A stretch of 64,000 nt of DNA from Candidatus Woesebacteria bacterium (GTDB lineage: Bacteria > Patescibacteriota > Microgenomatia > UBA8517): NCBI GenBank assembly GCA_963716475.1, contig OY970314.1, forward strand, positions 237,226 through 301,225, in the 5' to 3' direction. A model generated the notes under the pieces. That model searched no databases and was not told where the DNA came from. It saw only the letters and a list, made by a program, of their open reading frames with translations. Made by a program: the position numbers and the translations under genes. Shown here piece by piece: positions 5,841 to 55,740 of this stretch (positions are counted from its first letter, which is position 1; every line of letters starts with the position of its first letter).

Positions 5841-5882
5841 TTTAGTTTGACAGAAAAGCATTTTGTAGAGTAAACTCGCGCT

Positions 5883-26919: not shown

Positions 26920-26945
26920 ACACAAAAAGGAGGGGGCGCTTTTAG
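26920..26945 (+). repeat. intergenic motif, copy j
   Basis: acacaaaaaggagggggcgcttttag; overlaps the stop of the second sortase gene. Confidence 0.35.
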
Positions 26946-35577: not shown

Positions 35578-38500
35578 GCGTTTGCGACGCGCTTTTATCC
35601 CAGTCGAAATTTCCCGACCACCTGACGGATTCCTTAGACATTTTTCTCCTCAAACCCGGATTTTCGAGAAGCCGCAGGATATTTCTTGTAAATTCGTCAA
35701 CGTCTCCGTATGAAACAAGAAATCCGCTGTGCGGATTATGAACAGCATCTCTTAGGCCCGCGACGTTACTGGCAATTACGGGAGTTCCGCAGGCATTTGC
35801 TTCAATTGTGGTAATTCCCCAACCTTCAATAAGCGACGGATTAACAAACACCCAGGCTTTTTGGTAGAGATTAACTTTCTCTTTTTCGCTAACTTTTCCT
35901 GTAAAAGTAATCTTGTGATCAAGGTGGAGTTTTTTGGTAAGTTTCATAAGGTTTCTCTTTTCGTCGCCGTCGCCTGCAATTACAAATTCAACCGTCGGCA
36001 TTCTTCTTAATATCTTTTTGGCACTTTTAATGAATATAGGAATACTTTTTTGCGGACTGAGCCTGCCTAGGTATAAAACCATGGGACTGACTGATTTCCT
36101 GCCGGGTTTATATATATTTGAGTCAACGCCGTTGTAAACCACATAAGGCTCGTTTTGTGAGATGTTGTGCTCCAAAATATCGGCTTTAGATGACGGTGAC
36201 ACAGTCATTACCTGCGTGTTTCTGTATACCGCCGGCATAGCATATTTTTCAAGAATCATTCCGATCCATGAGAGCGGCGGCTTTAGCCTGATGCGGAAAA
36301 CGTCCTGATGAACATGGTGAATTAAAAGGAATATTTTTTCTTTCGCATAAAGAGGCGTGAAAAAAGGAATTCCGTTTTCCGAATCTATAATTAAATCAAA
36401 ACGGCCTCTGAATTTGAATACATAATATAGAAATGCCCAGATAAATACTGTATAGAATCCTCCGCGGCGGATTATATTTATTCCGTCAATCTGTTCGTTT
36501 CTGGGTGACTTGTGGTCGTCCCCGCAGAATAGTGTGACTTCATGACCCTGCCTTACCCAGCGTTTGGCCAATTCGTGAACATAGACTTCCGCCCCGCCGC
36601 TCCAGACGTGTTTTGTATCGCGCCAGTTGAAGACTAAAATATTGAGTTTATTTTTATTGATAGCCGTAAGAGGCGCCGGCGCCGGTGTAAAAAGTCCCAG
36701 TAGGTCTAGCGTATTTCTGGAAACAGATTGCAGTTTTCGGTAGTTAATATGAACGGAAAGCATCGCAGCAAAGTAAGCAATTCCTCCGATAAACATGACA
36801 TCCACAATTTCGGAAATATTTGCATGGAAGACAAACATTCCTATTATTTGAAGCAATGAAAACATAAATCCAAAATACGGCAACATATGTTCGCCTTTGG
36901 ATTGGTGGTAAAGAATTATGCTAAGGGCTGATGTTTGGAATACCATGGCCAGTGAATAAAGAGGCAGAAAAGGTGTAACCGAGAGAATTTTGGGACCAAA
37001 AAGTATTGGCGCAGTAAACTTTCCAAATACTCCGATACCTATAAACGCAATAAGCGATGATATGACTGTCGCTGTCAGAAGTTTATAAAAAGTAGATTCG
37101 GACTTTTCCCCTTTACCCTCATGCCTGCTAATTAGCGGGATTATAAAGGGTGTAAACTGCGACCCGAAGAAATAAATCATTTTTCCCGTCAGTGAAAGGA
37201 GCGTATAGCGGCCCGCGTCTGCCGGGCTCAGGAAAAGTTTTGCAAGAATTACGTCGAATGTTAAAAATGCTATAACCGACAGATTATTAACGAATGTCGA
37301 AGTGAAAAATCTCTTTGGGAACGTTTCAGGTACGGCCAGCTGAACGCCCTCTTCCCTACTCTTTATGTGACTGGCGAAATACCAGCCTACTATGAAAGAA
37401 ATGAGCAGTGATGCCGGAATTGCCAGATAAACCAAATCATGTAATCCTATTTCTACAAAGAAAATTGAAAGTGATAGCTTAGTTAATGCGACAATTACCC
37501 CCATGAACCCGAAAACAATAAAAAGAAGATTCCCGTTGATGAATCCGGAATCAACCGCATTGGCGAGGCCGATGACCCAAATGGGAACAAAAATTATAAA
37601 AGGAACAATAGTATCGGATTTGAATACGTGTTGAAGAACGGGAGTTAGTAGCAGCCAGACTGTTGCCAGAACGATAGAAACTTTAATACCGTCTTTTCTG
37701 GTTTTTGCCCAAAATCTTTTGGCGGGTGTATCGTTCTTGCCGAGAAGGAAAGCGCTCTTATGAGTAACGGAGTTTGATAAGGCGCTAAAAGGAACCGTTG
37801 CCAGGTATAGGAAGCTTCCAACGAGACCCACCATTCCGAAATCTTCAAGGCTAAGTTTGCGGCCAAGATAGGCGTTATATAAAAAATTTAAAGCATTCTC
37901 AAACATCGTCGCCCCGATCAGAAATGCCCCTGAGAAATATTCTGATTTCACCAGAGTCTTTATTCTTGCGATTCCGGGTATTCTGAGATTTTTAATAAAA
38001 TTGAACTCAAAACTTTTTGCTACTTCTTCTTTAACTTTTACCCTGTCCAGTCCATGGATTGTCTTTTCCCAAAAATGAGGTTTGACGAGCAACTGGTAGA
38101 ATGCAACAAACGCCCCGATACTAGTTAGGAGCCAGTAAAACGGAACCAGGAAAACATATTTTATTATGCTCCACTCTTCTCTCTTGGCTGCGCCGATCAT
38201 GTAGTAGTAGAGGTAAAGAAAATTGCCGAAAACTGCAGAAAACACGGCCATATAAAATATCGAAGGCGGATATAAAGCCTCGATCTGGGGACCGACAAAT
38301 TTATAAAGCAGAAAGTAAGCTGCGGTCATAGCCCACAGAAAAGGATTTATCAGCATAAAACCTACTCTAAGACCCGAAACCAGCTGGAAGATTAAAGAGT
38401 GCACCCGTTTTTCCTTGGCGAAGCTTAGGGGATTTCGCATCTGGACAAAATATGTTTGCATGTAGCCCTTGAGCCACCTACTCCTTTGGCGTATCCAGTT

Positions 38501-40183
38501 TTTGAGATTACTGTTGGCTTCTTCCAAGGTTAACGAATCAATAATTGCGGTTTTATAGCCAGCCCTGAAAAGTCTGGCACCAAGATCCGCATCTTCAGTA
38601 ACATTAAACGGGTCCCAGCCTTCGATCTTCTTTAAACCTGCTGTTCTGAAGTGGTTACTAGTGCCGCCTAAAGGAATTGATGTTCCAATTGTTTGGAGTC
38701 CGGGGAGGACAACATCAAACCACAAAGAATATTCGGCTGTAAAAAGCCTGGTCAGAATATTTTGATGGGGATTATAGTAATTAAGTTTTGCCTGCAGGCA
38801 AATTACGTCTCTCCGTGAATTACGGAATCCTAAGTAAGCCTTTTTAAGTTGTTCCGGCTCAGGTTGATCTTCAGCGTCATAAATAACAATAAAATCCCCT
38901 TTTGCGTGATTCAACCCGTAATTACAGGCTTTGGGTTTGGTTTTTGGCTGTGAATCCGGAACTATTAAGATTCTGAAATAACCGGGAAGATCCATCTTGC
39001 GGGCGGCTTTGATTGTTTCTTTATCGTCATTTTCAAGAAGTAGCAATACGTCGAGTTTGTCCTTAGGCCAATCAAGTTTTTTAATATTTTCCACGAACTG
39101 AGGTAAAACCTCGGTCTCTCTGTAAAGAGGGCAAAGAATGGAGTAAACCGGAAGGCTCCCGTCGGCAATTCCTCTGAGCCGGCTCTCATCAAAGCTAATT
39201 TCAGGAGGACTATGCAAACTTTTAAGAACTAATAACCCGCCGAAAAGTACGTCCAAAAAGTACACAAAGGACAGGAGCGCAAGAAATATTATTGCAGTTA
39301 ACTGGGGACTAAAGACAAGTCCTAAGATAAATATAGCCAGCGCCAGGGATAAAACTAACTTTTGGATGGGTGTAAAGGTTACGATTGCGGATTTTGTCTG
39401 GTGAAGGGTTGTGTGGGTTATAAATCTCCGGTTTTTGTAGAATACACCGGCTCCAAGCATCGAATTTTTTAATTTAGGTTTTAGACGATAAATCTTACCC
39501 GGCGAGAGTCTTAGAGCTATCGCAGTACTAACGATTTGCCAGGAAGTTTTGATAAGGTTAACTTTAGATTTACCGCTTTCTCTTTTCTGAAAGTCAATGT
39601 TAATTGACCCGATTTTCATACCCAGCTGCTTTGCGGTGTGGATAAGATGTAAATCGAAAGCCCAGGGTTTGATATCTTTTGTCTCGAGATGGTAAATTAT
39701 CTCTCTTTTGAAAAGCTTCAAACCAGATTGGGTGTCCAGATCCGTTCCGAGAAGGAATTTGGCATAAATCATATGCCCGGCCTTCGATATAAACCGTCTT
39801 AAACGACCCTCTTTATGGATTTTCCTATTTCCGATTACTATCCCCAAATTGTCTTTTTCTGCTTTTTTCAGCATCTCGGGGATGTATTCAGGTGCATACT
39901 GCAAGTCGCCGTCTATCATGGCGATGTATTCAGCATCTGAATGCTCCGAACCTTCCAAAATCGAGTAGCCTTTTCCGACTCTACCCTGCTTTAATAAAAT
40001 CGTTACAGGGTACTTCCCTGACAGACTTCTGAGAGCTCCGCCGATGTTATCGCTGGAGTGGTCGTCGATAATGATAATACCGTAGGGGATTTTTAACCTG
40101 CCCAGGCTTTTCCCGATTCTGGAGGTTAATTTATAAAGACTTGCGCTTTCATTTAAGACCGGAATAACGACATCAATCTTATT
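35552..40183 (-). CDS. giant multidomain polysaccharide synthase: GT2(Dpm1-like)-TM-GT2(processive, QxxRW)-Wzx-like flippase-GT4 fusion
   Basis: Continuous 1568-codon ORF (track start is TTG at 40258; probable ATG MNKIDVVIPVLNES at about 40183). Domains: VVIPVLNESASL...IIIIDDHSSD...DGDLQ (GT2); DAEDQPE...TEDADLG...QRSRWLKG (cellulose-synthase-like GT2); about 12-TM polysaccharide-biosynthesis/flippase-like segment; C-terminal GT4 (GGAEVYVHELAKRW...EGWGITTIEANACGTPVIAS). Confidence 0.8.
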   Translation of the reverse strand, partial: NKIDVVIPVLNESASLYKLTSRIGKSLGRLKIPYGIIIIDDHSSDNIGGALRSLSGKYPVTILLKQGRVGKGYSILEGSEHSDAEYIAMIDGDLQYAPEYIPEMLKKAEKDNLGIVIGNRKIHKEGRLRRFISKAGHMIYAKFLLGTDLDTQSGLKLFKREIIYHLETKDIKPWAFDLHLIHTAKQLGMKIGSINIDFQKRESGKSKVNLIKTSWQIVSTAIALRLSPGKIYRLKPKLKNSMLGAGVFYKNRRFITHTTLHQTKSAIVTFTPIQKLVLSLALAIFILGLVFSPQLTAIIFLALLSFVYFLDVLFGGLLVLKSLHSPPEISFDESRLRGIADGSLPVYSILCPLYRETEVLPQFVENIKKLDWPKDKLDVLLLLENDDKETIKAARKMDLPGYFRILIVPDSQPKTKPKACNYGLNHAKGDFIVIYDAEDQPEPEQLKKAYLGFRNSRRDVICLQAKLNYYNPHQNILTRLFTAEYSLWFDVVLPGLQTIGTSIPLGGTSNHFRTAGLKKIEGWDPFNVTEDADLGARLFRAGYKTAIIDSLTLEEANSNLKNWIRQRSRWLKGYMQTYFVQMRNPLSFAKEKRVHSLIFQLVSGLRVGFMLINPFLWAMTAAYFLLYKFVGPQIEALYPPSIFYMAVFSAVFGNFLYLYYYMIGAAKREEWSIIKYVFLVPFYWLLTSIGAFVAFYQLLVKPHFWEKTIHGLDRVKVKEEVAKSFEFNFIKNLRIPGIARIKTLVKSEYFSGAFLIGATMFENALNFLYNAYLGRKLSLEDFGMVGLVGSFLYLATVPFSALSNSVTHKSAFLLGKNDTPAKRFWAKTRKDGIKVSIVLATVWLLLTPVLQHVFKSDTIVPFIIFVPIWVIGLANAVDSGFINGNLLFIVFGFMGVIVALTKLSLSIFFVEIGLHDLVYLAIPASLLISFIVGWYFASHIKSREEGVQLAVPETFPKRFFTSTFVNNLSVIAFLTFDVILAKLFLSPADAGRYTLLSLTGKMIYFFGSQFTPFIIPLISRHEGKGEKSESTFYKLLTATVISSLIAFIGIGVFGKFTAPILFGPKILSVTPFLPLYSLAMVFQTSALSIILYHQSKGEHMLPYFGFMFSLLQIIGMFVFHANISEIVDVMFIGGIAYFAAMLSVHINYRKLQSVSRNTLDLLGLFTPAPAPLTAINKNKLNILVFNWRDTKHVWSGGAEVYVHELAKRWVRQGHEVTLFCGDDHKSPRNEQIDGINIIRRGGFYTVFIWAFLYYVFKFRGRFDLIIDSENGIPFFTPLYAKEKIFLLIHHVHQDVFRIRLKPPLSWIGMILEKYAMPAVYRNTQVMTVSPSSKADILEHNISQNEPYVVYNGVDSNIYKPGRKSVSPMVLYLGRLSPQKSIPIFIKSAKKILRRMPTVEFVIAGDGDEKRNLMKLTKKLHLDHKITFTGKVSEKEKVNLYQKAWVFVNPSLIEGWGITTIEANACGTPVIASNVAGLRDAVHNPHSGFLVSYGDVDEFTRNILRLLENPGLRRKMSKESVRWSGNFDWDKSASQTLELFKGAT

Positions 40184-40320
40184 CATATTTTTGCTGACCC
40201 CATATCCTAAGTGAAGGAATCCCCCTCTCGTTATGGGGTTATGAGAACTTGTTGGCAATTATGCAATAAAATGCTGAATAATTGCTGAAATATATAGCTA
40301 AGATTTTATAAGAATGACGG

Positions 40321-42426: not shown

Positions 42427-42591
42427 ACTATATATAGATAATAAAAGGACTCGGTTTTCCTGAGTCCTAAGGCTATTTTAAGAAATCCAGTTTATTTGTC
42501 AATGCCCACGTTGGCCGGTTTACAATACCACTTGACATGAAGTTTGGAATAACACAATACTGGTATATACAGAAATTGGGGGTGAGAAGTA

Positions 42592-42744
42592 ATGGCTAAA
42601 AGAAAAAGTCCAAAGAGAACCGGAAGATCCAAGGGCGTAGTTCGTGGAATTACCGACAACAGAAATTTAAGTGTTCTCGTCGTCGTACTCGCTCTCCTTT
42701 TGTTTGTTTTTTCGGCAGTTTATATGAGTAGGGGCGGAATATAA
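42592..42744 (+). CDS. unannotated 50-aa small basic/TM protein (MAKRKSPKRTGRSKGVVRGITDNRNLSVLVVVLALLLFVFSAVYMSRGGI)
   Basis: Not in ORF track; RBS GGGGGTGAG 5 nt upstream of the ATG; basic N-terminus plus one TM helix. Confidence 0.35.
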   Translation: MAKRKSPKRTGRSKGVVRGITDNRNLSVLVVVLALLLFVFSAVYMSRGGI

Positions 42745-42823
42745 AAACCTTTTATTTGTATATCCGGATTGGAGAGTTTGGTCTTTCGGCTTTGCTTAGG
42801 ACTTCGTTAGCTGAAGTTTATGG

Positions 42824-45603: not shown

Positions 45604-47349
45604 TTGTTTATCATGCCCACTGCCAAACCTATTCCAATTACGGAGGATAACGGAACCGAAACTCTAGCTGACGTTTTGGTAAAACTCGGAGTTCTTGATG
45701 CGACGCGTGCCAAACAGATAAAACTTGCGGAGATTCAAAGCGGATCGACTCAAGAGGATATTCTCAGACAGGGTAATATGGTGCCTGAGGGAAAATTGGT
45801 CCAGGCAAAAGCTCAACTTTATAATATTCAGTTTATAGATCTGACTGCAATCCCCATAGCTCCGGCTGCCCTTTCGGCACTTCCCGCAGAAGTAGCGGAG
45901 CGTTTCAAAGTTTTTCCTGTAGGAATCGACAGAAAAGACAAAAGCTTAATTCTGGCGATGGCAGACCCCCTGGACCTCTCCGCAATAGAGTTTATCGAGC
46001 AAAAAACAGGTTTTCATATCAGACCACGTGCGGCTCTTGCATCACAGATAGAAGATTTTGTTCAGAACCGCTACACGTCTTCTCTTACCCAGGAGGTATC
46101 GGCGGCGCTTAAGGAAGTCGAGCCCGAGAAGGAAAAAATGGCGGCTCTTCAGAATTCCACAGGGGGGTTCATACGCGAGGAAAAAATTGCCCAGATTGTG
46201 TCGCAAATATTGGAATTTGCCATTAAGAGCAGGGCCAGCGACGTTCATATAGAACCTCAGGAAAAATCCACCAGAGTCCGCTATCGAATCGATGGAATTT
46301 TGCAGGAAAAGCTTTCAATCCCAAGGGAACTCCATGATTCTTTAATTTCGAGAATAAAGATATTAAGCGGAATGAAAATTGATGAGAAAAGAATCCCCCA
46401 GGACGGCAGATTTAATTTTAAAGGCAGTGAGGAGGAGGTCGATCTTCGTATTTCATCTCTTCCGACAACCTGGGGAGAAAAAATTGTCATGAGGCTTCTC
46501 AAAAAATCAGGCGGTGTACCCGACCTTCCCGAACTGGGACTTAGGGGCCGGGGTTTAAAGAATTTACAGGATGCAATCCTCCGGCCTCACGGAATAATTC
46601 TTATCTGCGGACCGACGGGATCCGGTAAAACAACAACACTTTATTCGGTTATATCCAAGCTGAATACTACAAAGGTCAATATTGTTACTTTGGAAGACCC
46701 TATCGAGTATAAAATACCCGGTGTAAATCAGGTGCAGATTAACCCTGCGGTAGGACTGACTTTTGCATCCGGCTTGAGGTCATTCCTTCGTCAGGACCCG
46801 AATATTATTCTGGTCGGGGAAATTAGGGATCGCGAAACTGCCGATTTGGCCGTTCAGGCTTCACTTACGGGGCATTTGGTATTTTCAACTTTGCATACGA
46901 ATGATGCTTCGGGCGCCCTCCCCCGCCTTCTTGATATGGGTGCCGAGCCGTATCTTCTGGCATCGTCAATTACCTGTATTGTGGCTCAGCGTGTGGTTAG
47001 GGAAGTTCACCAAGCCTGCAAAGAGGCCTACTCACCCGATCCTAAAGTTTTGTCTGATATTCAGAAGGAACTGGGTAATCTTTGGCACCCGACGGGGGAA
47101 GTCAAATTTTATAAGGGTAAGGGCGATCCCGATTGCGCCAACTCGGGTTATTACGGCAGGATTGGTATTTTTGAAGTTATTCCCGCTTCGGAAATGATCG
47201 GAAAACTGATTTTGGAAAGGGCTTCCTCGACCGATATAGAGAAAATGGCAAGACAAGAGGGAATGATATCTCTCAAACAGGACGGGTACTTGAAAGTTAC
47301 CGAAGGAATTACTACAGTAGAAGAGGTACTAAGGGTAGCACAGGAATAA
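45604..47349 (+). CDS. pilB: type IV pilus assembly ATPase PilB (GspE family)
   Basis: N-terminal GSPII_E_N domain; Walker A GPTGSGKTTTLYS; Asp box, Walker B and His box. Confidence 0.9.
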   Translation: MFIMPTAKPIPITEDNGTETLADVLVKLGVLDATRAKQIKLAEIQSGSTQEDILRQGNMVPEGKLVQAKAQLYNIQFIDLTAIPIAPAALSALPAEVAERFKVFPVGIDRKDKSLILAMADPLDLSAIEFIEQKTGFHIRPRAALASQIEDFVQNRYTSSLTQEVSAALKEVEPEKEKMAALQNSTGGFIREEKIAQIVSQILEFAIKSRASDVHIEPQEKSTRVRYRIDGILQEKLSIPRELHDSLISRIKILSGMKIDEKRIPQDGRFNFKGSEEEVDLRISSLPTTWGEKIVMRLLKKSGGVPDLPELGLRGRGLKNLQDAILRPHGIILICGPTGSGKTTTLYSVISKLNTTKVNIVTLEDPIEYKIPGVNQVQINPAVGLTFASGLRSFLRQDPNIILVGEIRDRETADLAVQASLTGHLVFSTLHTNDASGALPRLLDMGAEPYLLASSITCIVAQRVVREVHQACKEAYSPDPKVLSDIQKELGNLWHPTGEVKFYKGKGDPDCANSGYYGRIGIFEVIPASEMIGKLILERASSTDIEKMARQEGMISLKQDGYLKVTEGITTVEEVLRVAQE

Positions 47350-47350
47350 C

Positions 47351-48409
47351 ATGAACGTTAAACAATTACTGCAATCCGTGATAGATGCTGAGGCAAGCGA
47401 TTTACATCTTGTAACGGGTATTCCGCCGACTCTGCGTAAAGACGGGGAGCTTATGCCGATTCCCTCTACCGGTGTTCTTACTCCGGATAATATCGGGGAT
47501 CTTCTTAAGGAGATATTGACCAGCGAACAAATCGAGAGACTGGCCGTTAATAAAGAATTGGATTTTTCTCTGTCATTTTCCGAAAAAGGAAGGTTCAGAG
47601 TCAACGCTTATACGCAGAAAGGCTCACTGGCCGCTGCTTTCAGGTTAATTCCTTTAGTAATTCCTTCAATTGAAAATTTGGGACTTCCCTCGATCTTGCA
47701 TTCATTTACCAGTTTGCGTCAGGGTTTTGTTCTGGTAACCGGTCCTACCGGACACGGAAAGTCTACAACACTGGCAGCGATGATTCAGGAAATTAATCAG
47801 ACCCGCCCGGTTCATATTGTGACAATCGAAGATCCGGTCGAGTTTGTTTTTAACCCGGTAAAGGCAATTATTTCCCAAAGAGAAATGCGAAGTGACACTC
47901 ATTCGTGGGAAATTGCTCTCCGCTCGGCTCTTAGGGAGGACCCCGACGTTGTATTTATAGGTGAAATGAGAGATTACGAAACCATTGCGGCGGCTCTGAC
48001 TGTTGCCGAAACCGGGCATCTGGTTTTTGCAACCCTGCATACCAATAATGCGGCGCAGTCAATCGACAGAATTGTGGATGTTTTTCCCGAGGAGCAGCAG
48101 CAGCAGATACGTTTACAACTGAGTAATGTCATCGAGGCAGTCTTTTCTCAAAGACTTATCCAAAGTGCCACCAAAGGCAGAGTGGTCACATATGAAGTAA
48201 TGTTGGGAAGTAGCGCCATCCGGACCACCATCCGCGAGGGCAAGACTCATCAGATTGAGAGCATTATTGAAACTTCCCACGAGGTTGGTATGAGTACTCT
48301 GGAAAGGTCTCTTGCCGATTTGGTCAAAAGAGGCGTGGTTACGCTTGAGGTGGCAGAAAGTTGGTCCCTTCGTCCGGAAGAACTGACACGTCTGATCCGT
48401 ACCACTTAA
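47351..48409 (+). CDS. pilT: twitching-motility/retraction ATPase PilT
   Basis: GPTGHGKSTTLAAMI Walker A; PilT-like length (352 aa) and C-terminal AIRNLIRE-like block (AIRTTIREGK). Confidence 0.85.
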   Translation: MNVKQLLQSVIDAEASDLHLVTGIPPTLRKDGELMPIPSTGVLTPDNIGDLLKEILTSEQIERLAVNKELDFSLSFSEKGRFRVNAYTQKGSLAAAFRLIPLVIPSIENLGLPSILHSFTSLRQGFVLVTGPTGHGKSTTLAAMIQEINQTRPVHIVTIEDPVEFVFNPVKAIISQREMRSDTHSWEIALRSALREDPDVVFIGEMRDYETIAAALTVAETGHLVFATLHTNNAAQSIDRIVDVFPEEQQQQIRLQLSNVIEAVFSQRLIQSATKGRVVTYEVMLGSSAIRTTIREGKTHQIESIIETSHEVGMSTLERSLADLVKRGVVTLEVAESWSLRPEELTRLIRTT

Positions 48410-48435
48410 TATGGTAAGTAAAGGAAACTTCAGTA

Positions 48436-49644
48436 ATGAAAAGGTTTAATTACAAAGCCAAAGACAAGTTAGGGAATCTTGTTACGGGGGAAGTAGAGGC
48501 ATTCACTCCAAATGCGGCTGCAAGGCTGGTTAAGGGCAGAGGTCTTTATGTTATTTCCATAACGCCTAAAATGGACTCCCCCTTTGCCGTTATAAGAAGA
48601 TACAGGGACAGGGTTACCGTTGGTGATGTTGCAACTTTTACACGCCAACTTTCAACGATGATCAACGCGGGTCTCCCCATTACGGAGGCGATTTTAATTT
48701 TGAGATCACAGTCGAAAGGATCGATGCAAAAAATTGTCGCCCAGATTCTTGCGGATATTGAGGCGGGAGATTCTTTTTCCGACTCACTAAGTAAGCACCC
48801 TAAAGTATTCTCCCGTACGTATATTGCCCTCGTCCGGTCGGGGGAGGTCGGCGGAGTAATGGATGCGGTACTTCTCCGGTTGGCCGATAATATGGAGAAA
48901 CAGGAAGAATTCGGCAGCCGCGTGAGAGGGGCAATGATTTACCCGGCAATCATTATTGTAGGAATGGTAGTAGTCAGTTTCGTGATGATGATTTTTGTTA
49001 TCCCTAAGTTAACTTCTCTTTATACGGATTTTGGTGCCACACTCCCCGTCCCGACACAGATACTTATGGGAGTTTCTAGTTTCTTTGTCCGTTTTTGGTA
49101 CATAATGATCCTCCTCGTGGGTGGGGTGCTTTACGCTTACAGAATATATGTTTCAACACCCAAAGGGCGCAGGAATATGGACGCCTTTATATTCAAAATT
49201 CCCGTATATGGTGAGCTGCAGCGTCAGATTATTTTAACGGAATTGACACGTACTCTTTCTCTCATGGTCGGAGCAGGCGTTCCCATTCTTGAGGCTCTGA
49301 CTATTACTTCCGAGGTTGTGACCAATACTATAATTTCAGAAGCCTTGCGGGATGCGGCAACACAGGTTGAAAGAGGATTTCCTATAGCCTTTTCGTTTTC
49401 GCGTCATCCCGAGGCCTTCCCGTATTTATTAAGCCAGATGATAGCAGTGGGAGAAGAAACGGGGAAAATGGATGAAGTTTTGACTAAAATCAGCCACATT
49501 TTCGAAGTGGAAAGCGATGAAAAAGTCAAAGGTCTAACTGCGGCGATTGAACCGCTTGTGATGATAGTTTTGGGTATCGGGGTCGGATTTTTGGTTATTG
49601 CCGTAATACTTCCGATTTATAATTTGACCAGTCAAATTCAATAA
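48436..49644 (+). CDS. pilC: type IV pilus platform protein PilC (GspF family)
   Basis: Two GspF repeats with 3 TM; typical cytoplasmic-domain motifs. Confidence 0.85.
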   Translation: MKRFNYKAKDKLGNLVTGEVEAFTPNAAARLVKGRGLYVISITPKMDSPFAVIRRYRDRVTVGDVATFTRQLSTMINAGLPITEAILILRSQSKGSMQKIVAQILADIEAGDSFSDSLSKHPKVFSRTYIALVRSGEVGGVMDAVLLRLADNMEKQEEFGSRVRGAMIYPAIIIVGMVVVSFVMMIFVIPKLTSLYTDFGATLPVPTQILMGVSSFFVRFWYIMILLVGGVLYAYRIYVSTPKGRRNMDAFIFKIPVYGELQRQIILTELTRTLSLMVGAGVPILEALTITSEVVTNTIISEALRDAATQVERGFPIAFSFSRHPEAFPYLLSQMIAVGEETGKMDEVLTKISHIFEVESDEKVKGLTAAIEPLVMIVLGIGVGFLVIAVILPIYNLTSQIQ

Positions 49645-49702
49645 AATTAGCTTCGGAATAGTACTTGACAAGCAAATTTAGATAGTTAATACTGAATATG
49701 TA

Positions 49703-50287
49703 ATGAAAAGAACACTTGCCCAAGGCTTCACGCTGATTGAACTCCTGATCGTTATCGCAGTCCTCGGAATTTTGGCGGTTGCCGTTCTTTCTGCAATTAA
49801 CCCGATCGAACAGATTGACAGAAGCAGGGATACGGGAAGCCGGTCCGATGCCGAACAGCTTATAGGAGCTGTTGACAGGTTTTATGCTACTCAGGGTTAT
49901 TATCCCTGGAGATCAAGTCCGACTCTCGGTGCAGACGCATATGCCTTTAAGAGGATTACGGCTTTGACTGATTGGCAGGACAATACTGGTGTAAATGTGT
50001 TGGATAAGCTTTCGGGTGTTGGCGTCGGTGCGGCCGGCGAGGTAAAGTTGTCTTTTGTTCAGAGAATAATTGGAGCGGGATATAATTATATGTTTGTTTA
50101 TAACAGAGGAACCTCGGGTGATAGTACTTATGTATGTTTCAGCGGAAAGTCTAAGGCTTTTCAGAAAGAGGCTACGGATCGTTGTGCAGGTACCAATGGA
50201 GCTATACCGGATGATTTAGATAGAGCTTCTGTGTGTAATGTAACTGTGGATGGCGTTGCCGGCAAGAGTATGACGTGTCTTCCTTAG
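49703..50287 (+). CDS. type IV major pilin candidate (PilA-like)
   Basis: Class III signal and N-methylation motif AQGFTLIELLIVIAVLGILAVAVLSAI; first pilin, right after pilC; followed by a T-rich tract. Confidence 0.8.
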   Translation: MKRTLAQGFTLIELLIVIAVLGILAVAVLSAINPIEQIDRSRDTGSRSDAEQLIGAVDRFYATQGYYPWRSSPTLGADAYAFKRITALTDWQDNTGVNVLDKLSGVGVGAAGEVKLSFVQRIIGAGYNYMFVYNRGTSGDSTYVCFSGKSKAFQKEATDRCAGTNGAIPDDLDRASVCNVTVDGVAGKSMTCLP

Positions 50288-51008
50288 TGTCTTTTTTTTT
50301 ATTTTTCTTCTAGGACTTGTTTTTGGTTCGTTTATTTCGGCACTGACGTGGCGCTACCCCCTTGGCATCTCGGTTAATAAAGGAAGAAGTATTTGTCCGA
50401 ACTGTAAGAGTCAAATTTCCTGGAAAGATAATATTCCCCTGCTCTCCTTTATTCTTCTCGGAGGCAGATGCCGGAATTGCAAAAAGCCGATCTCATGGCG
50501 TTATCCTGCGATTGAGCTTGCGACCGGAATCGGTTTTATGCTAATAGGTTATCAAGTTTTGTGGTTAGTAGTCTTTTGTATCCTGGAAGCAATATTTATT
50601 ATTGATCTGGAGCATAGAATTATTCCCGACACATTTGTATTTACAGGAATTCTTTTACTTAGCTTATTCTTTATGTTTAGCGGCTATACGCTACTCCTGC
50701 CCGCTCTTTTGGGTGGTTTTCTTGCGGCAACATTCCTGGTTCTTATTCACTTATTTACCAAAGGGCGCGGTATGGGCCTCGGGGATGTTAAATTTGCCGT
50801 TTTGGGAGGAGTCTTGGTCGGACTGAAACTAACCCCGGTGTGGCTATTTTTGGCTTTCTTGACAGGCGCGGCGGTAGGAAGCATACTGATTTTGGGTAAG
50901 CGCGCACACCTTAAAAGCCAGATAGCTTTTGGACCTTTTTTGGTAGCCGCTATCCCTTTAGCTTTATTTTATGGAGAAAAAATACTTCTCTGGCTTAAGT
51001 TTTATTGA
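50287..51008 (+). CDS. pilD: prepilin peptidase PilD (A24 family); N-terminus lacks an in-frame canonical start (possible frameshift or slippage at T9 tract)
   Basis: Reading frame ..FFFIFLLGLVFGSFISALTWRYP..CPNCKSQISW..CRNCKKPISWRYP (Zn-finger CxxC..CxxC) continues into the track ORF 50538..51008 (A24 TM core with GMGLGDVKF); in this frame a TGA lies just upstream and no ATG/GTG/TTG occurs before the conserved N-terminus; a GTG overlapping the pilin stop is in the +1 frame before a T9 run. Confidence 0.65.
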
Positions 51009-51585
51009 GGTTATGGTCGCCGTAAGTGTTATTGCCATTTTGACCCTGCTTGTAATAAATACTTATCTCGGTCAGACTTTTAAAGGATATGATGCGAAAC
51101 GCAAGGGAGACCTCGATAGAATTAAAGTGGCCACGGAAGAGTACGAAAAGGACAATAATTGCTACCCTCCCGCCGCTCTTGTTAAATGTGAGAATGGAGG
51201 TGCCGGACTTAAACCTTACTTAAACACAATTCCCTGTGACCCGAAAACCCATGAATCGTATGCTTATGAACCGGATCCCGAGGGTTGCCCCATATGGTTT
51301 CGGGCTTATGCCAAATTGGAAAATCTGGGCGACAAGTCAGCAATACCGGGAATTGGCCCGGGCGGAGCCTATAATTATTATGTGTCAAGTCCGAACGCAC
51401 CCCTTCTTGGTGGATTTGCCAGTGAGGTCCCGACCTCTCATTGGGGTTGTTTTAGCGGAATCTGTAAGCCTTTAAAAGAGAATCCTCCGGGAAACCCTGT
51501 TTGCGGCCCTTCCAGTACGACATCCGATTGTTATAGTCTTAACCATTGTATTCCTGAGGGTGCTCAGGATTGGGAGTGTAAATGA
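50971..51585 (+). CDS. pilin-like protein (minor pilin/pseudopilin)
   Basis: N-terminus FSGLSFIEVMVAVSVIAILTLLV (Gly at -1, Glu at +5); Cys-rich C-terminal region; overlaps the pilD 3' end. Confidence 0.6.
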   Translation: MEKKYFSGLSFIEVMVAVSVIAILTLLVINTYLGQTFKGYDAKRKGDLDRIKVATEEYEKDNNCYPPAALVKCENGGAGLKPYLNTIPCDPKTHESYAYEPDPEGCPIWFRAYAKLENLGDKSAIPGIGPGGAYNYYVSSPNAPLLGGFASEVPTSHWGCFSGICKPLKENPPGNPVCGPSSTTSDCYSLNHCIPEGAQDWECK

Positions 51586-52163
51586 AGAAATTTTCCAAAA
51601 CCGAGCTGATTTCAATATTTGTCATTTTTTTTATTTTGATAGCTGTTTCTGTTCCTAATTTTGTTATAAGTATAAGGAGAGCCCGCGATCAGGTAAGGAG
51701 GGACGATATGGGGACATTGGTTCATGCACTGGATCAGTATATGACCGATTTTAAAACGTTTCCGTCTGCTTCTCCTGACGGACGCATGATGGATTGTCTC
51801 AAGCCCGGAGATAAACCGGTTAAAGATAATAAAGGAAATTGGACGTTTAGCCCGATCCCCTGCGACTGGGGGAAAGATTCTTTTGCCAACCTTATAAACG
51901 GTAATATTTATATATCTGTGCTTCCCCGCGACCCGGATTATCAAAAAGGAGCAAAGTATTTGTATTTTAGTGACGGAGACAGATATCAAATCTATGCCGC
52001 AATGGAGGGGTCGGATGAAGCGGAAGTTGATCCAAAAATAGTTGCCAGGGGTCTTTTGTGCGGAACCAGAGTTTGCAATATTGGCCGCTCTTATAATGTT
52101 CCTACTGATATTTCTATCGAGGAATATGATAAATTATTAATAGTACCCAATGTTAAAAAATAA
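51582..52163 (+). CDS. atypical pilin-like protein lacking the conserved Gly before the hydrophobic segment
   Basis: MKKFSKTELISIFVIFFILIAVSV... then RRARDQVRRDDMGTLVHALDQYMTDF (pilin-like alpha1 pattern) and conserved YP..LPRDP block shared with neighbouring pilins. Confidence 0.5.
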   Translation: MKKFSKTELISIFVIFFILIAVSVPNFVISIRRARDQVRRDDMGTLVHALDQYMTDFKTFPSASPDGRMMDCLKPGDKPVKDNKGNWTFSPIPCDWGKDSFANLINGNIYISVLPRDPDYQKGAKYLYFSDGDRYQIYAAMEGSDEAEVDPKIVARGLLCGTRVCNIGRSYNVPTDISIEEYDKLLIVPNVKK

Positions 52164-52710
52164 TCGGAAATTATCTAAAGGTTTTACTCTAATCGAGATT
52201 TTGGTGGTAATGGTAATTTTGGGAATTTTGGTTACCATCGGTCTCGCTTCGTTTGTGTCTGCACAGGCAAGAAGCCGTGATGTCAGGCGTAAAAGTGACC
52301 TTAAGCAAATTGCAACGTCTCTGGATCTTTACTATTCCGATTATGAGGTCTACCCTACGGGTTCGGTTGACGGAAAAATCAAGGGTTGCCCATCCGGTAC
52401 GGGAGTGGCTTGTGTTTGGGGAGGAACTCCGTCGGAATTTAAGGATGGGAAAACTACTTATATGAAAATAGTTCCGGCTGATCCTTTACTGGGGTATAAC
52501 TACTATTATCGGACTATTACCGTTAACTCTTCGGTGGTCGGTTTTCAACTTTATGCACATTTGGAAAACACCAAGGACATCAATTGTCTACCCGATGCAA
52601 CGGGTGTAGCCAACTGCAGTAACCCTGTAATTCCCGCCGGTGTAACATGCGGCGGATCTTCAAAATGTAATTTTTCTTTAACAAGTTCTAACGTAACACC
52701 GACTCAGTAG
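52150..52710 (+). CDS. type IV pilin-like protein
   Basis: KGFTLIEILVVMVILGIL...RSRDVRRKSDLKQIATSLDLYYSDYEVYP...VPADP. Confidence 0.7.
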   Translation: MLKNNRKLSKGFTLIEILVVMVILGILVTIGLASFVSAQARSRDVRRKSDLKQIATSLDLYYSDYEVYPTGSVDGKIKGCPSGTGVACVWGGTPSEFKDGKTTYMKIVPADPLLGYNYYYRTITVNSSVVGFQLYAHLENTKDINCLPDATGVANCSNPVIPAGVTCGGSSKCNFSLTSSNVTPTQ

Positions 52711-52751
52711 TGGTCTTAGAAAACTTTTCGTAGTATCATTTATACAGGAAT

Positions 52752-53252
52752 ATGTCTGCCCGATTTATAAAACTTGGCTTCACACTAATCGAACTTCTGG
52801 TGGTTATTTCTATAATCGGGATTTTGGCAACTCTTGTTGTTGCAAACTTAAATTCCGCAAGATCTCGTGCCCGCGACGCTGCGAGAAAGTCGGATCTTGG
52901 GAATATTTCCACAGCTCTTAGAATTTATTATAACGATAGAAACGTTTATCCGGCCAAAGACGCCTCATATCAGATTGTAGGCTGCAGTTCATACACTACC
53001 CCAGCTACTTGTGCCTGGGGGACCGAATGGTCAGTAGGCTCCGATCCCAATAAGATTACATATATGGCAACGGTTCCGAAAGACCCTCTCCCTTCACAGT
53101 CATACAGGTATGAGCCCGGTGCGACGGGTGATACATTTATCCTGACGGCTTGTTTGGAAAACGGCAGTGACGCTCAAGGCGTAACCACAGTCAGTACAGC
53201 CTACGATACTTTCTGTTCATCGTCCCATTGGATGTTCCAGTTAAAGCAATGA
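52752..53252 (+). CDS. type IV pilin-like protein
   Basis: LGFTLIELLVVISIIGILA...RSRARDAARKSDLGNISTALRIYYNDRNVYP...VPKDP. Confidence 0.7.
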   Translation: MSARFIKLGFTLIELLVVISIIGILATLVVANLNSARSRARDAARKSDLGNISTALRIYYNDRNVYPAKDASYQIVGCSSYTTPATCAWGTEWSVGSDPNKITYMATVPKDPLPSQSYRYEPGATGDTFILTACLENGSDAQGVTTVSTAYDTFCSSSHWMFQLKQ

Positions 53253-53740
53253 AAATTATAAAAAACGGCTTCACACTGATTGAACTTTTGGTAGTTATTT
53301 CTATAATCGGGATTTTGGCTGCAATGGCCACCTTATCCTTCACCTCGGCTCAGAGACAGGCGAGGGACGTCACCAGAAAATCTGATTTAGCGCAATACCG
53401 CACTGCATTGGAAATGTTTGCCAATAAAAATAACGGTTTGTATCCAACTTCTTCTGCGACCTCCGTGTCACGCATCGATCCTAAAAATCTTTGTACTACA
53501 CTGGAACTTGGCACGAACTGTCCTGCCGATCCGAAGACAAGTGACTCTAATTATTATTATAGCTATATAACTGATGTTGCAGCCGCCCCGCTTTTCTCTG
53601 CGCAAGCGACACAGTATGTTCTGTGGGCAAAACTCGAAAACGTTACAACATCACCCACCTACTGGGTACTTTGCTCGGGCGGTAAAAGCGGGGTCCTAGC
53701 TACCGGTGTCACTCCGTCAACCGGAGCGTGTCCTATCTGA
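53228..53740 (+). CDS. type IV pilin-like protein
   Basis: NGFTLIELLVVISIIGILAAMA...RQARDVTRKSDLAQYRTALEMF; probable start MKIIKNGF at about 53249. Confidence 0.7.
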   Translation: MDVPVKAMKIIKNGFTLIELLVVISIIGILAAMATLSFTSAQRQARDVTRKSDLAQYRTALEMFANKNNGLYPTSSATSVSRIDPKNLCTTLELGTNCPADPKTSDSNYYYSYITDVAAAPLFSAQATQYVLWAKLENVTTSPTYWVLCSGGKSGVLATGVTPSTGACPI

Positions 53741-54213
53741 TGAAATTACAAATCCCAAATTCCAAAATACAAACTCTGGCTCGGGGTTTCACTTTGATCG
53801 AACTTCTGGTGGTTATTTCCATTATTGGAATACTTCTGGGGCTTTCGGTTTTTGGCCTGCAGGGGGCAAGGTTGTCTGCCAGGGATGCCCGACGTAAGTC
53901 TGATTTGGAAGCTATTCGGAGCGGACTTGAAATGTATAAGGCGGATTGTAATAGCTACCCTCTTACTGCTCAAGTAGCCGGTGGGACGGCGCTTGTCGGC
54001 GCTGCGGGACTGGCCGGATGTACCGGAAATACTTATATTTCACTGATACCGATGGATCCAGTTTCTCCGGCCCGATCCTATGCGTACGTATCCGCCGGCA
54101 CGACTTATACTTTGTGTGCTGCGTTGGAACAGGCACCATCCCCCGCAATGGCACCGAACCCCGCCTGTGGTAGCTGTACGGTTGGATGTAATTATCGGGT
54201 TATAAATCCATGA
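53728..54213 (+). CDS. type IV pilin-like protein
   Basis: RGFTLIELLVVISIIGILLGL...ARDARRKSDLEAIRSGLEMYKADCNSYP...IPMDP. Confidence 0.7.
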   Translation: MSYLMKLQIPNSKIQTLARGFTLIELLVVISIIGILLGLSVFGLQGARLSARDARRKSDLEAIRSGLEMYKADCNSYPLTAQVAGGTALVGAAGLAGCTGNTYISLIPMDPVSPARSYAYVSAGTTYTLCAALEQAPSPAMAPNPACGSCTVGCNYRVINP

Positions 54214-54220
54214 CCATGAA

Positions 54221-54775
54221 ATGGAAACATCAAATTACAAAAAACAAATACCAAATAAAAAAGGTGGTTATGGGTACACCCCAATAAGAACCATTCGAAA
54301 GAACCCTGTCAGTGTGTATGCCTACACCCTGATTGAAATTCTGGTAACCCTGACAATCATAGGACTTCTTTTTGGCTTCGGATACGCCAATTTTAGGGAT
54401 TTTTCGAGACGGCAGGTACTCAGCGATGCCGTAAAGACGATACAAGGAGACTTGAGGTTTACCCAGGCTAATGCAATAACAGGCCAGAAGCCGACAGGTT
54501 GTGATTTAACCAAAACGCTTGACAGTTATAGCTTCAAAGTTGTTTCTGAAACTGAATACACAATTTTAGCAAACTGCGGAAGTACGACAGTTACAGTAAA
54601 GGATGTAAATATAGCTCCGGGTATTACTATTGCGCCTATTCCCATAACTCTGAATTTTAAAATTTTAGGTCAAGGGACAGACGTGGGCAGTTCCGATTGG
54701 ACACTGACTCTGGTGCAAGACGGAACGGCAAACACGGGAACCGTGACTGTGACGTCGGGAGGAGAAATAAAATGA
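54221..54775 (+). CDS. pseudopilin-like protein (non-canonical AYTLIE leader)
   Basis: Long basic leader then AYTLIEILVTLTIIGLLFGFGYANF; beta-rich C-terminus. Confidence 0.5.
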   Translation: METSNYKKQIPNKKGGYGYTPIRTIRKNPVSVYAYTLIEILVTLTIIGLLFGFGYANFRDFSRRQVLSDAVKTIQGDLRFTQANAITGQKPTGCDLTKTLDSYSFKVVSETEYTILANCGSTTVTVKDVNIAPGITIAPIPITLNFKILGQGTDVGSSDWTLTLVQDGTANTGTVTVTSGGEIK

Positions 54776-55215
54776 AATCACAATCCGGGCAGTCGCTTTT
54801 TGAGCTTGTGGTTGCAATTGCGATTAGCGCTCTGATGATTGTTGCCATGGTTTCCCTGGCGGTAAACTCCATCCAAAATGCAAATTTTGCCAAAAATAAG
54901 GCCCTGGCCTCAACTTATGCCCAGCAGGCGATGGAGTGGCTCAGAGGACAAAGGGATAGCGGAATAGATACCTTTATCGATAATGTAACAATGGCTACCG
55001 GTTCGAGTAGATGTTTAAACGATTTAGCTTGGACAGTTGCTCCCTGCGGTTCGGGTGCAACCATCACGGGGACCCCTTTTATACGTCAAGTAACTTTTAG
55101 CGTAACGACCCAAAACACTAAAAAAGTTGTTAAGGCAGATGTTACGGTTTCCTGGAAGGACTCGCAAGGAACCCATCAAGTAGAAAGTGCCACGAATTTG
55201 GCAGATTTGAGATAG
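54772..55215 (+). CDS. pseudopilin-like protein
   Basis: MKSQSGQSLFELVVAIAISALMIVAMVSLAVN; the track ORF 54697 start is an upstream extension. Confidence 0.55.
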   Translation: MKSQSGQSLFELVVAIAISALMIVAMVSLAVNSIQNANFAKNKALASTYAQQAMEWLRGQRDSGIDTFIDNVTMATGSSRCLNDLAWTVAPCGSGATITGTPFIRQVTFSVTTQNTKKVVKADVTVSWKDSQGTHQVESATNLADLR

Positions 55216-55224
55216 TGTTTAAAA

Positions 55225-55740
55225 ATGACAAATAGTAAATTACGAATCACAAAAGTTGCGGGAAAGGGTATGAGTCTGGTCGAAATTCTTGTTGTGATTA
55301 CAATTTTTGCGGTACTCGGTATTTTGATTACACAATCCGTTATCCTGACTTTGCAGGGTTCTCAAAAGAGTGAATCGATTGTGCGTGCAAGGGAAAACCT
55401 GGATTATTCTCTGAATATAATCGAACGGCAACTCAGAAATGCCGACTCTGTCATATCATGTCCAGACCCCTATACAATTAATTATCTGGACCAAAGCGGT
55501 GTTTCCACTTCATTTTCGTGTCAACAAATGGGGTCAAACGATTCTTATATTGCGTCAGGTTCTGCCAGATTGACGACAGACACGGTTAAAATAACAGGCT
55601 GTACTTTTACCTGTACTCCGGCGACTATGACCAATCCTGCATTGGTTAAAGTAGACCTTATTGTGCAGGAAGATTTTAAATCGGGGGCGCAAAGCGCCAG
55701 TATATCGGCCTCAACGCAGATTTATCTCAGGAATTATTAA
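55225..55740 (+). CDS. pseudopilin-like protein
   Basis: GKGMSLVEILVVITIFAVLGILITQSVILTL. Confidence 0.55.
   Translation: MTNSKLRITKVAGKGMSLVEILVVITIFAVLGILITQSVILTLQGSQKSESIVRARENLDYSLNIIERQLRNADSVISCPDPYTINYLDQSGVSTSFSCQQMGSNDSYIASGSARLTTDTVKITGCTFTCTPATMTNPALVKVDLIVQEDFKSGAQSASISASTQIYLRNY

What the first reader, a model, noticed from the sequence alone, without database searches (positions are those of the whole stretch)
50271..50340. pilD has no in-frame start codon; a T9 homopolymer between the major pilin and pilD could restore frame by +1 slippage
Reading the DNA directly, the prepilin-peptidase frame (..FFFIFLLGLVFGSFISALTWRYP..CPNC..CRNC..) is closed upstream by TGA, and it contains no ATG, GTG or TTG before the conserved zinc-finger N-terminus. 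A GTG overlapping the pilin stop codon (ccTTAGTGtc) lies in the +1 frame and is followed by a run of nine T. One extra T (T10) would make GTG-S-F-F-F-I-F-L-L-G-L-V-F-G-S-F... in frame. Runs of 9 or more T/A are known to promote transcriptional slippage. This is therefore either a homopolymer sequencing error, a programmed slippage-dependent expression switch for pilD, or a phase-variable pilus locus.
Basis: seen in the sequence. Interest (0 to 1): 0.58.

Follow-up and report, generated by a model that had tools for sequence, protein, structure and literature searches.

The report
pilD frameshifted at a T9 run
An ordinary prepilin peptidase gene (pilD) in a Woesebacteria-like pilus locus is cut off from its real GTG start because a run of nine Ts is one T too short, which is either a homopolymer sequencing miscall or a recent one-base deletion, not an evolved expression switch.

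Summary
The pilin gene ends at TAG 50285-87. A GTG (50287-89) shares its G with that stop. A T9 run (50292-50300) follows and is the only homopolymer of 9 or more in the 64 kb. The PilD frame, open from 50274 after TGA 50271-73, has no ATG, GTG or TTG until ATG 50538, beyond both CxxC motifs. T10 (or T7 or T13) gives MSFFFIFLLGLVFGSF..., a 240-aa protein typical of the family.

About 200 related pilD genes all have a canonical in-frame start. Many place it 10 nt or less after the pilin stop or overlapping it, and three share this exact one-base overlap. So the GTG is the real start and the tract is one T short.

No relative is out of frame, and I found no stimulatory RNA structure, terminator or Rfam match. 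pilD is the only visibly broken gene in the window, and its unannotated N-terminal domain is fully conserved.

A second assembly of run ERR12035932 also reads T9, but I could not establish the sequencing platform.

My estimates:
- Homopolymer miscall: about 0.42.
- Real deletion buffered by RNA polymerase slippage: about 0.30.
- Off state of a phase-variable tract: about 0.12.
- Evolved switch: about 0.05.

Interest is low.

The parts
45604..47349 (+). PilB-type assembly ATPase (locus context)
   Evidence: PF00437 T2SSE E=1.8e-127 plus MshEN
47351..48409 (+). PilT-type retraction ATPase (context)
   Evidence: PF00437 E=1.2e-43. Logan contig L170 is identical over 47272-49635
48436..49644 (+). 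PilC platform protein (context)
   Evidence: PF00482 T2SSF E=6e-62
49703..50287 (+). Major pilin gene, 194 aa, ending ...MTCLP then TAG (50285-87)
   Evidence: PF07963 N_methyl. The C-terminal C..CLP/CVPE motif matches the upstream ORFs of relatives. A promoter-like TTGACA-17-AATACT lies at 49665-49693
50271..50273 (+). TGA that closes the PilD reading frame upstream
50287..50289 (+). GTG, the inferred true pilD start, sharing its G with the pilin TAG (TAGTG, one-base overlap)
   Evidence: The same one-base stop/start overlap occurs in L091 (TGATG), L104 and L011. In 30 of 48 relatives that have an upstream ORF, the start lies 10 nt or less after the stop or overlaps it
50292..50300 (+). T9 homopolymer, one T short of in-frame. 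It contains the -1 slippery heptamers U UUU UUU (50292-98) and U UUU UUA (50295-301), in phase with the GTG frame
   Evidence: Also T9 in Logan contig L001
50287..50313 (+). Eight-codon ORF read from the GTG as written (MSFFLFFF then TAG)
50301..51008 (+). PilD body: 235 sense codons plus stop in the frame open from 50274. It includes the N-terminal Zn-finger domain (four Cys) and the A24 peptidase domain with GLGDVK
   Evidence: PF06750 E=3.9e-30 and PF01478 E=4.3e-14. All 69 invariant columns of 30 sequences are kept. The N-domain is 79% identical to homologues on average, the C-domain 67%
50301..50303 (+). ATT, the only in-frame near-cognate start before the conserved core. It would give MFLLGLVFGSF
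   Evidence: Homologue P0065/L088 has an equally short N-terminus, MILIGLIFGSF
50538..51008 (+). 156-aa ORF that gene callers report (P0078). It starts at an internal, non-conserved Met and lacks the whole N-domain
50971..55740 (+). Run of 9 further ORFs (50971-55740); 7 match the N_methyl prepilin motif at E<=0.001 (none for 51582-52163; 54697-55215 not scanned); these are PilD substrates

Best explanation
pilD here is an ordinary prepilin peptidase gene, translationally coupled to the pilin gene. Its real start is the GTG that shares one base with the pilin stop codon (TAGTG). Three bases later comes a T tract that must be 10 long (or 7, or 13) to keep that start in frame with the 235 conserved codons that follow, but the deposited sequence has 9.

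My single most likely reading is that the organism has T10 and one T was lost in base-calling or consensus of a long-read metagenome assembly. The product would then simply be MSFFFIFLLGLVFGSF..., 240 aa.

Shown: the geometry, the position of the start in relatives, the uniqueness of the out-of-frame state, and the intactness of the ORF. Inferred: that the missing T is missing from the data rather than from the cell.

The 'real T9' scenarios listed as rivals together weigh about as much as this one. What is well supported is that this is a tract-length event at a normal gene, not a conserved recoding device.
For: - The start position is fixed by comparison. In 120 homologous proteins and about 100 loci, every pilD has a canonical start 6-31 codons (mode 15) before the GSF motif. 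GTG plus T10 puts it at 13.
- In 30 of 48 relatives that have an upstream ORF, the start is 10 nt or less after the stop or overlaps it. Three relatives have the same one-base overlap.
- No relative is out of frame.
- The break sits at the longest homopolymer in the window.
- pilD is the only visibly split gene among roughly 57 tightly packed ORFs. All T8 and A8 runs that lie inside ORFs are in frame.
- The part of pilD that would go untranslated is fully preserved: complete PF06750, all invariant residues, and 79% mean identity, which is higher than the C-domain. The defect is therefore absent in vivo or very young.
- The source contig is 982,852 bp, which suggests a long-read metagenome assembly. 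For Nanopore R10.4, homopolymers of 10 or more are said to remain problematic (PMC9262707). The Nanopore-only Microflora Danica MAG study reports homopolymer-linked loss of coding density (PMC12313526).
Against: - Two Logan contigs of run ERR12035932 are 100% identical to the window over 6.2 kb, and one of them (L001) spans the tract and reads T9. If that run is Illumina or HiFi, T9 is real.
- The platform could not be established.
- A/T runs of 10 or more are absent from 235 kb of related Patescibacteria loci and from this window, whereas runs of 9 occur 10 times. A true coding T10 would therefore itself be unusual.
- PMC9262707 states that at consensus level most homopolymers shorter than 11 are resolved correctly by R10.4.
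Confidence: 0.42

Rival explanations
1. T9 is real: a lineage-specific one-base deletion from T10 whose effect is buffered. RNA polymerase slips on the 9-nt tract and adds one non-templated U in a fraction of transcripts, which puts the GTG in frame. A minor second route is a -1 ribosomal slip on U UUU UUU or U UUU UUA two codons after initiation. PilD is made at a reduced level, which may suffice for an enzyme. This would be adventitious rescue, not an evolved device.
For: - T9 appears in two assemblies.
- The ORF downstream is perfectly intact, and the whole pilus locus that depends on PilD is intact.
- Nine As or Ts is the length at which bacterial transcriptional slippage becomes efficient. 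Established cases are mxiE (extra U in a U run needed for the long product), Thermus dnaX (A9), C. rodentium tssM1 (A11), and Buchnera and Blochmannia poly(A) frameshifts (PMC1088944; PMC5009743; PMC4256274).
- Both slippery heptamers are in phase with the GTG frame.
Against: - There are no expression data.
- The arrangement is unique to this genome.
- No structure lies downstream of the tract; fold z-scores are +0.4 to +1.2.
- The slippage efficiency of this organism's RNA polymerase is unknown.
- Nine other A9/T9 runs in relatives lie within long open frames rather than at a frame break.
Confidence: 0.3
2. T9 is the OFF state of a phase-variable tract. Replication slippage flips T9 and T10 at high frequency, so the population is a mixture of piliated and non-piliated cells, and the consensus happened to be OFF.
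For: A homopolymer within the first five codons is the classic contingency-locus layout (my own knowledge, for example the poly-G tract in Neisseria pilC). ON lengths are T7, T10 and T13 and OFF lengths are T8, T9, T11 and T12. Such tracts are hypermutable (PMC1088944).
Against: No length polymorphism was seen, since both assemblies give T9 and no T10 version of this protein exists among 5.8 billion protein clusters. No relative carries a run of 9 or more at this site; the longest there is T8. This cannot be tested without reads.
Confidence: 0.12
3. An evolved, selected slippage-dependent throttle or switch of pilD (programmed recoding).
For: The tract length and phase are suitable, and low PilD relative to pilin is a plausible stoichiometry. 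A/T9 runs are otherwise depleted in this genome, so this one stands out.
Against: The defining test, conservation of the out-of-frame arrangement in orthologues, fails in about 200 relatives. There is no stimulatory structure, terminator or Rfam match.
Confidence: 0.05
4. T9 is real and PilD starts at a non-canonical or internal codon. One option is ATT 50301, reached by re-initiation after the pilin stop, giving MFLLGLVFGSF. The other is ATG 50538, giving a 156-aa peptidase-only protein that retains both catalytic Asp residues.
For: ATT is in frame, 14 nt after the stop. A natural homologue has an equally short N-terminus (P0065/L088). The 156-aa ORF keeps D111, D119 and D171.
Against: AUU is a very weak start (my own knowledge). 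No Shine-Dalgarno sequence lies before either codon, although this genome uses GGAG-type sites. Met89 is not conserved as a start. The N-domain is more conserved than the C-domain, so it is translated.
Confidence: 0.05
5. T9 is real and pilD is a very recently dead pseudogene. Pili are lost, or served by another A24 peptidase elsewhere in the genome.
For: As written, there is no start codon for the full-length protein.
Against: The 244 open codons show no further lesion, all invariant residues are kept, and PilB, PilT, PilC, the major pilin and the downstream pilin-like ORFs (seven with the N_methyl motif) are intact. No second peptidase was seen in the window.
Confidence: 0.06

Closest known systems
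Homopolymer indel errors in long-read (Nanopore) assemblies
   Same: A single-base length shortfall at the longest A/T run, fragmenting a gene call in an otherwise clean region. A 10-mer is at the stated limit of R10.4 (PMC9262707; PMC12313526).
   Different: The platform of this assembly is not known. A second assembly of run ERR12035932 agrees on T9.
Shigella flexneri mxiE (transcriptional slippage on a run of Us)
   Same: Two overlapping frames joined only when RNA polymerase adds one non-templated U, which is needed to make the long functional product (PMC1088944; PMC5009743).
   Different: mxiE slippage is shown experimentally. Here nothing is measured, the arrangement is not conserved, and the tract sits two codons after the start.
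Rescued frameshifts at poly(A/T) tracts: C. rodentium tssM1 (A11), Buchnera and Blochmannia genes, Thermus dnaX (A9)
   Same: A slippery A/T tract lets an interrupted gene of a secretion or envelope machine, or of a reduced genome, still yield full-length protein (PMC4256274; PMC5009743).
   Different: Those cases are verified by RNA or protein analysis and, for tssM, conserved in Yersinia. This case is a single unverified genome.
Phase-variable contingency loci (homopolymer in the 5' coding region, e.g. Neisseria pilC poly-G)
   Same: The tract lies in the first codons of a pilus biogenesis gene, and ON/OFF is set by tract length modulo 3.
   Different: No tract-length polymorphism was observed. 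The comparison rests on my own knowledge, not on a test.
-1 programmed ribosomal frameshifting (dnaX A AAA AAG; HIV-1 U UUU UUA)
   Same: The heptamers U UUU UUU and U UUU UUA are in the correct phase relative to the GTG frame.
   Different: There is no downstream hairpin or pseudoknot, no upstream Shine-Dalgarno-like stimulator was seen, and the site is two codons from initiation and not conserved.
PilD/A24A prepilin peptidases of Patescibacteria
   Same: Both Pfam domains are present, the four Cys and the Asp motifs are kept, the closest homologue is 79% identical, and the gene order pilB-pilT-pilC-pilin-pilD-minor pilins is the same.
   Different: This is the only one among about 200 examined without an in-frame canonical start.

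Membership tests
Prepilin peptidase PilD (MEROPS A24A) | N-terminal A24_N_bact domain with two CxxC pairs | tested here: met
   PF06750 E=3.9e-30, profile 1-83 of 84. C41, C44, C66 and C69 are invariant
Prepilin peptidase PilD (MEROPS A24A) | Peptidase_A24 domain with both catalytic Asp residues (IIPD and GxGD) | tested here: met
   PF01478 E=4.3e-14. D119 and D171 (GLGDVK) are invariant
Prepilin peptidase PilD (MEROPS A24A) | Sits in a type IV pilus locus with N_methyl prepilin substrates | tested here: met
   PilB, PilT, PilC, the major pilin and seven further genes matching N_methyl at E<=0.001
Prepilin peptidase PilD (MEROPS A24A) | Uninterrupted ORF from a canonical start | tested here: not met
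   No ATG, GTG or TTG between TGA 50271 and ATG 50538. The GTG 50287 is one base out of frame
Programmed transcriptional slippage site | Run of 9 or more A or T | tested here: met
   T9 at 50292-50300. The threshold is from PMC1088944
Programmed transcriptional slippage site | Adding or removing tract bases joins two frames into the functional product | tested here: met
   T10 gives a 240-aa PilD; T9 gives an 8-aa peptide
Programmed transcriptional slippage site | Out-of-frame arrangement and tract conserved in orthologues | tested here: not met
   None of 120 proteins or about 100 loci; the longest T run at this site in relatives is 8, and it is in frame
Programmed transcriptional slippage site | mRNA population heterogeneous in tract length | not testable with these tools
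   Needs RNA-seq or cDNA
-1 programmed ribosomal frameshift | X XXY YYZ heptamer in phase | tested here: met
   U UUU UUU at 50292-98 and U UUU UUA at 50295-301, relative to the GTG frame
-1 programmed ribosomal frameshift | Downstream stimulatory structure | tested here: not met
   Folds of 50301-50360 and 50301-50400 are no more stable than shuffles (z +0.39 and +0.88). No Rfam hit
Phase-variable contingency locus | Hypermutable repeat in the promoter or 5' coding region | tested here: met
   T9 begins 3 nt after the start codon
Phase-variable contingency locus | Tract-length polymorphism within or between populations | tested here: inconclusive
   Two assemblies both give T9. No T10 protein exists in the databases, but this species is seen in only one sample. 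Read-level data are not available
Sequencing or assembly artefact | Lesion at a homopolymer at or above the platform's resolution limit, with the rest of the gene intact | tested here: met
   Longest homopolymer in the window, only broken gene, ORF otherwise perfect
Sequencing or assembly artefact | Error-prone platform, and accurate reads disagree with the consensus | not testable with these tools
   The platform of ERR12035932 was not found

The most novel reading that the evidence does not exclude
T9 is real and functional. In this reduced-genome, probably episymbiotic Woesebacteria-like organism, the amount of PilD, and through it maturation of the major pilin and the pilin-like proteins, would be set by polymerase slippage on a T tract two codons into the gene. 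RNA polymerase slippage would give graded low expression, and DNA polymerase slippage would give heritable ON/OFF switching. That would be a one-tract master switch for type IV pili in a Candidate Phyla Radiation (CPR, Patescibacteria) bacterium.
Probability: 0.15. Interest if true: 0.5.

Novelty: already known. Interest (0 to 1): 0.2.

Why it matters
The practical value is for annotation. The 156-aa 'peptidase' now on record for this genome (P0078) should be a 240-aa PilD starting at the GTG that overlaps the pilin stop. It should be flagged as frameshifted or corrected once reads are checked.

If T9 proves real, it adds a Candidate Phyla Radiation (CPR, Patescibacteria) example to the short list of envelope-machine genes kept alive by transcriptional slippage (mxiE, tssM). 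It would also suggest that reduced-genome CPR bacteria tolerate such lesions as insect endosymbionts do. That would be interesting, but it is a known kind of phenomenon.

A reusable by-product is that, in many of these relatives, pilD starts at or within a few bases of the pilin stop. This can guide start-codon calls.

Tried and rejected
- **Alternative genetic code (UGA as sense).** Rejected. All long ORFs are intact under table 11, and other genes end in TGA or TAA normally.
- **Pilin-PilD fusion by a +1 shift in the last pilin codons.** Rejected. There is no slippery context and it makes no biological sense.
- **T run as the tail of an intrinsic terminator after the pilin gene.** No stem was found by the scan or by folding.
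- **Known RNA element.** No Rfam match at E of 1 or less in 49500-51100.
- **Systematic homopolymer errors in the window.** I checked ORF junctions, overlaps and gaps (35552/35577, 5819-5909, 9822-9880, 54697-54775). All are normal gene boundaries with Shine-Dalgarno sites.
- **Other cases in the clade.** Five homologues with short N-termini were suspected. L087 is a mis-called start, and L088 and L089 are genuinely short and in frame. L048 has an in-frame GTG. Nine A9/T9 runs in related loci sit in intact frames.
- **Same-species T10 variant.** None found. The best other PilD is 79% identical among 5.8 billion protein clusters, and both the GTDB and JGI scans gave at most 76%.
- **Platform of run ERR12035932.** Not found in the papers or supplements searched. 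Accession-neighbourhood searches were uninformative.
- **Ends of the Logan contigs.** They are not at homopolymers or within-window repeats, so they give no clue to the platform.

Full report
**What is there.** The region is a complete type IV pilus locus of a Woesebacteria-like (Patescibacteria) genome:
- PilB 45604-47349, PilT 47351-48409 and PilC 48436-49644.
- A 194-aa pilin, 49703-50287.
- A prepilin peptidase reading frame.
- Nine further ORFs up to 55740, seven of which match the N_methyl prepilin motif.

The closest PilD homologues are annotated Woesebacteria and reach 79% identity. The deposited gene call for this genome is a 156-aa fragment, P0078, on a 982,852-bp contig.

**Check of the observation.** Every sequence statement is correct.
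- The pilin ends ...MTCLP then TAG (50285-87).
- A GTG at 50287-89 shares its G with the stop (TAGTG).
- T9 occupies 50292-50300 and is the only homopolymer of 9 or more in the 64 kb.
- The PilD frame opens after TGA 50271-73 and contains no ATG, GTG or TTG until ATG 50538, which lies beyond both CxxC pairs.
- Read from the GTG, the sequence gives MSFFLFFF and then a stop.
- With T10 it gives a 240-aa protein beginning MSFFFIFLLGLVFGSF. T7 and T13 also restore the frame.

The frame 50274-51008 carries complete PF06750 (profile 1-83 of 84, beginning just after the T run) and PF01478. Runs of nine T or A are about ninefold depleted in the window relative to dinucleotide-preserving shuffles (1 against 8.8 ± 4.3). 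The one run present is therefore conspicuous.

**Where pilD should start.** I compared 120 homologous proteins, 80 loci from GTDB species representatives, 22 of the 80 loci from JGI metagenomes, and several contigs fetched by exact protein.
- Every one has a canonical in-frame start 6-31 codons before the conserved GSF motif, with a mode of 15. GTG plus T10 places it at 13.
- In 48 of 64 Patescibacteria loci examined, a same-strand ORF ends within 60 nt of the pilD start. It usually has the pilin C-terminal motif CxxC[VLI]P[EQ] or ...SCLP, as here.
- In 30 of those 48, the pilD start is 10 nt or less after the stop or overlaps it.
- L091 (TGATG), L104 and L011 have exactly the one-base overlap seen in the window.

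The GTG at 50287 is therefore the expected, translationally coupled start. It has no Shine-Dalgarno sequence of its own, although this genome uses GGAG-type sites elsewhere. That fits termination-reinitiation coupling.

**Is it a device?** The defining test for programmed recoding is conservation of the out-of-frame arrangement. That test fails, because no relative is out of frame and none has a run longer than T8 at this site.
- RNA downstream of the tract folds no better than shuffled sequence (z +0.39 and +0.88).
- There is no terminator between the pilin gene and pilD, and no Rfam match.
- Nine other A9/T9 runs found in 235 kb of related loci all sit in intact reading frames.

The tract does form the heptamers U UUU UUU and U UUU UUA in phase with the GTG frame. 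A -1 ribosomal slip would therefore give the same or nearly the same product as an extra U, but nothing else marks the site as a frameshift signal.

**Artefact or real?** For artefact:
- The lesion is at the longest homopolymer in the window.
- pilD is the only visibly broken gene among roughly 57 tightly packed ORFs. T8 and A8 runs that lie inside ORFs are in frame.
- The segment that would go untranslated (codons 10-88) is more conserved than the rest (79% against 67% mean identity) and keeps every invariant residue.
- A 983-kb single contig implies long reads.
- For Nanopore R10.4 the developers of that workflow state that homopolymers of 10 or more remain problematic (PMC9262707). The Nanopore-only Microflora Danica MAG paper links long homopolymers to lost coding density (PMC12313526).

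Against artefact:
- Two Logan contigs assembled separately from run ERR12035932 are identical to the window over 6.2 kb, and one of them (L001) spans the tract and reads T9.
- Runs of 10 or more are absent from about 300 kb of this clade's DNA, while runs of 9 occur ten times.
- R10.4 consensus is said to resolve most runs shorter than 11.

I could not establish whether ERR12035932 is Nanopore, HiFi or Illumina. If it is an accurate platform, T9 is real. No T10 version of this protein exists in the protein collection, but the species is seen in only this one sample.

**If T9 is real.** The best-supported route to PilD is transcriptional slippage.
- Nine As or Ts is the length at which bacterial RNA polymerases slip efficiently and at which selection against such runs becomes visible (PMC1088944).
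- In Shigella mxiE, an extra U in a U run is needed for the full-length protein.
- Thermus dnaX (A9), C. rodentium tssM1 (A11), and Buchnera and Blochmannia poly(A) frameshifts are further precedents.
- The same tract would also be hypermutable in replication, giving T9/T10 phase variation.
- Initiation at ATT 50301 is not excluded on length grounds, because homologue P0065 begins MILIGLIFGSF. It would be weak.
- The annotated 156-aa ORF retains both catalytic Asp residues but starts at a non-conserved internal Met.

**Verdict.** This is a normal pilD with a one-base tract-length discrepancy immediately after its real GTG start. My estimates are:
- Homopolymer miscall: 0.42.
- Real deletion buffered by slippage: 0.30.
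- Off state of a phase-variable tract: 0.12.
- Evolved switch: 0.05.
- Alternative start or truncated enzyme: 0.05.
- Fresh pseudogene: 0.06.

Every reading belongs to an already known kind of phenomenon. Interest is low (0.2) unless accurate reads confirm T9.

Noticed in passing
window 50285-50289; L091, L104, L011, L088, L039, L089, L092, L010: In many of these Patescibacteria loci pilD starts at or within a few bases of the stop of the upstream (usually pilin-like) ORF. There are one-base overlaps (TGATG, TAATG), four-base ATGA overlaps (L088, L039), or direct abutment. 30 of 48 loci with an upstream ORF have a gap of 10 nt or less. This looks like conserved translational coupling and helps in calling starts.
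   Followed up: partly
window, whole: Runs of nine T or A are about ninefold rarer than in dinucleotide-preserving shuffles (1 against 8.8 expected). This fits selection against slippage-prone runs in coding DNA.
   Followed up: partly
L087 1474-1503 (protein P0116): The database gene call starts at an internal GTG. An ATG 27 nt upstream, 6 nt after the pilin TAA, gives the family-typical MILQLIFIFVLGLIFGSF.
   Followed up: yes
window 50971-51585: The pilin-like gene after pilD overlaps the pilD 3' end by 38 nt if it starts at ATG 50971. The NCBI/ENA call is 190 aa and the Logan call is 204 aa, so its start is uncertain.
   Followed up: no
window 49665-49693: A sigma-70-like TTGACA-17 nt-AATACT (10 of 12 matches) lies just upstream of the major pilin gene. 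It is a plausible pilin promoter.
   Followed up: no
L002-L007 (Woesebacteria GW2011_GWA1_44_23 and near-identical contigs), about 1376-2980: In the closest named relative, a 534-aa PMT_2/TPR glycosyltransferase-like gene is inserted between the pilin gene and pilD. In one assembly (L006) that gene is split in two.
   Followed up: no
window 11739-16409 (-) and 35552-40258 (-): Two very large ORFs (1556 and 1568 aa) were not examined. The 1568-aa product as delimited by the longest ORF is not on record, so its start is probably called differently.
   Followed up: no
window 42427-42823 and 26692-26941: These are the largest ORF-free gaps in the window (397 and 250 nt). There are no tRNAs anywhere in the window.
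   Followed up: no
L001 (window 50012-53814) and L170 (window 47272-49635): Logan contigs of run ERR12035932 are short (3.8 and 2.4 kb) and 100% identical to the window. They end at positions that are neither homopolymers nor within-window repeats. The contig index exceeds 11.5 million, so the run is a very large, complex metagenome.
   Followed up: partly
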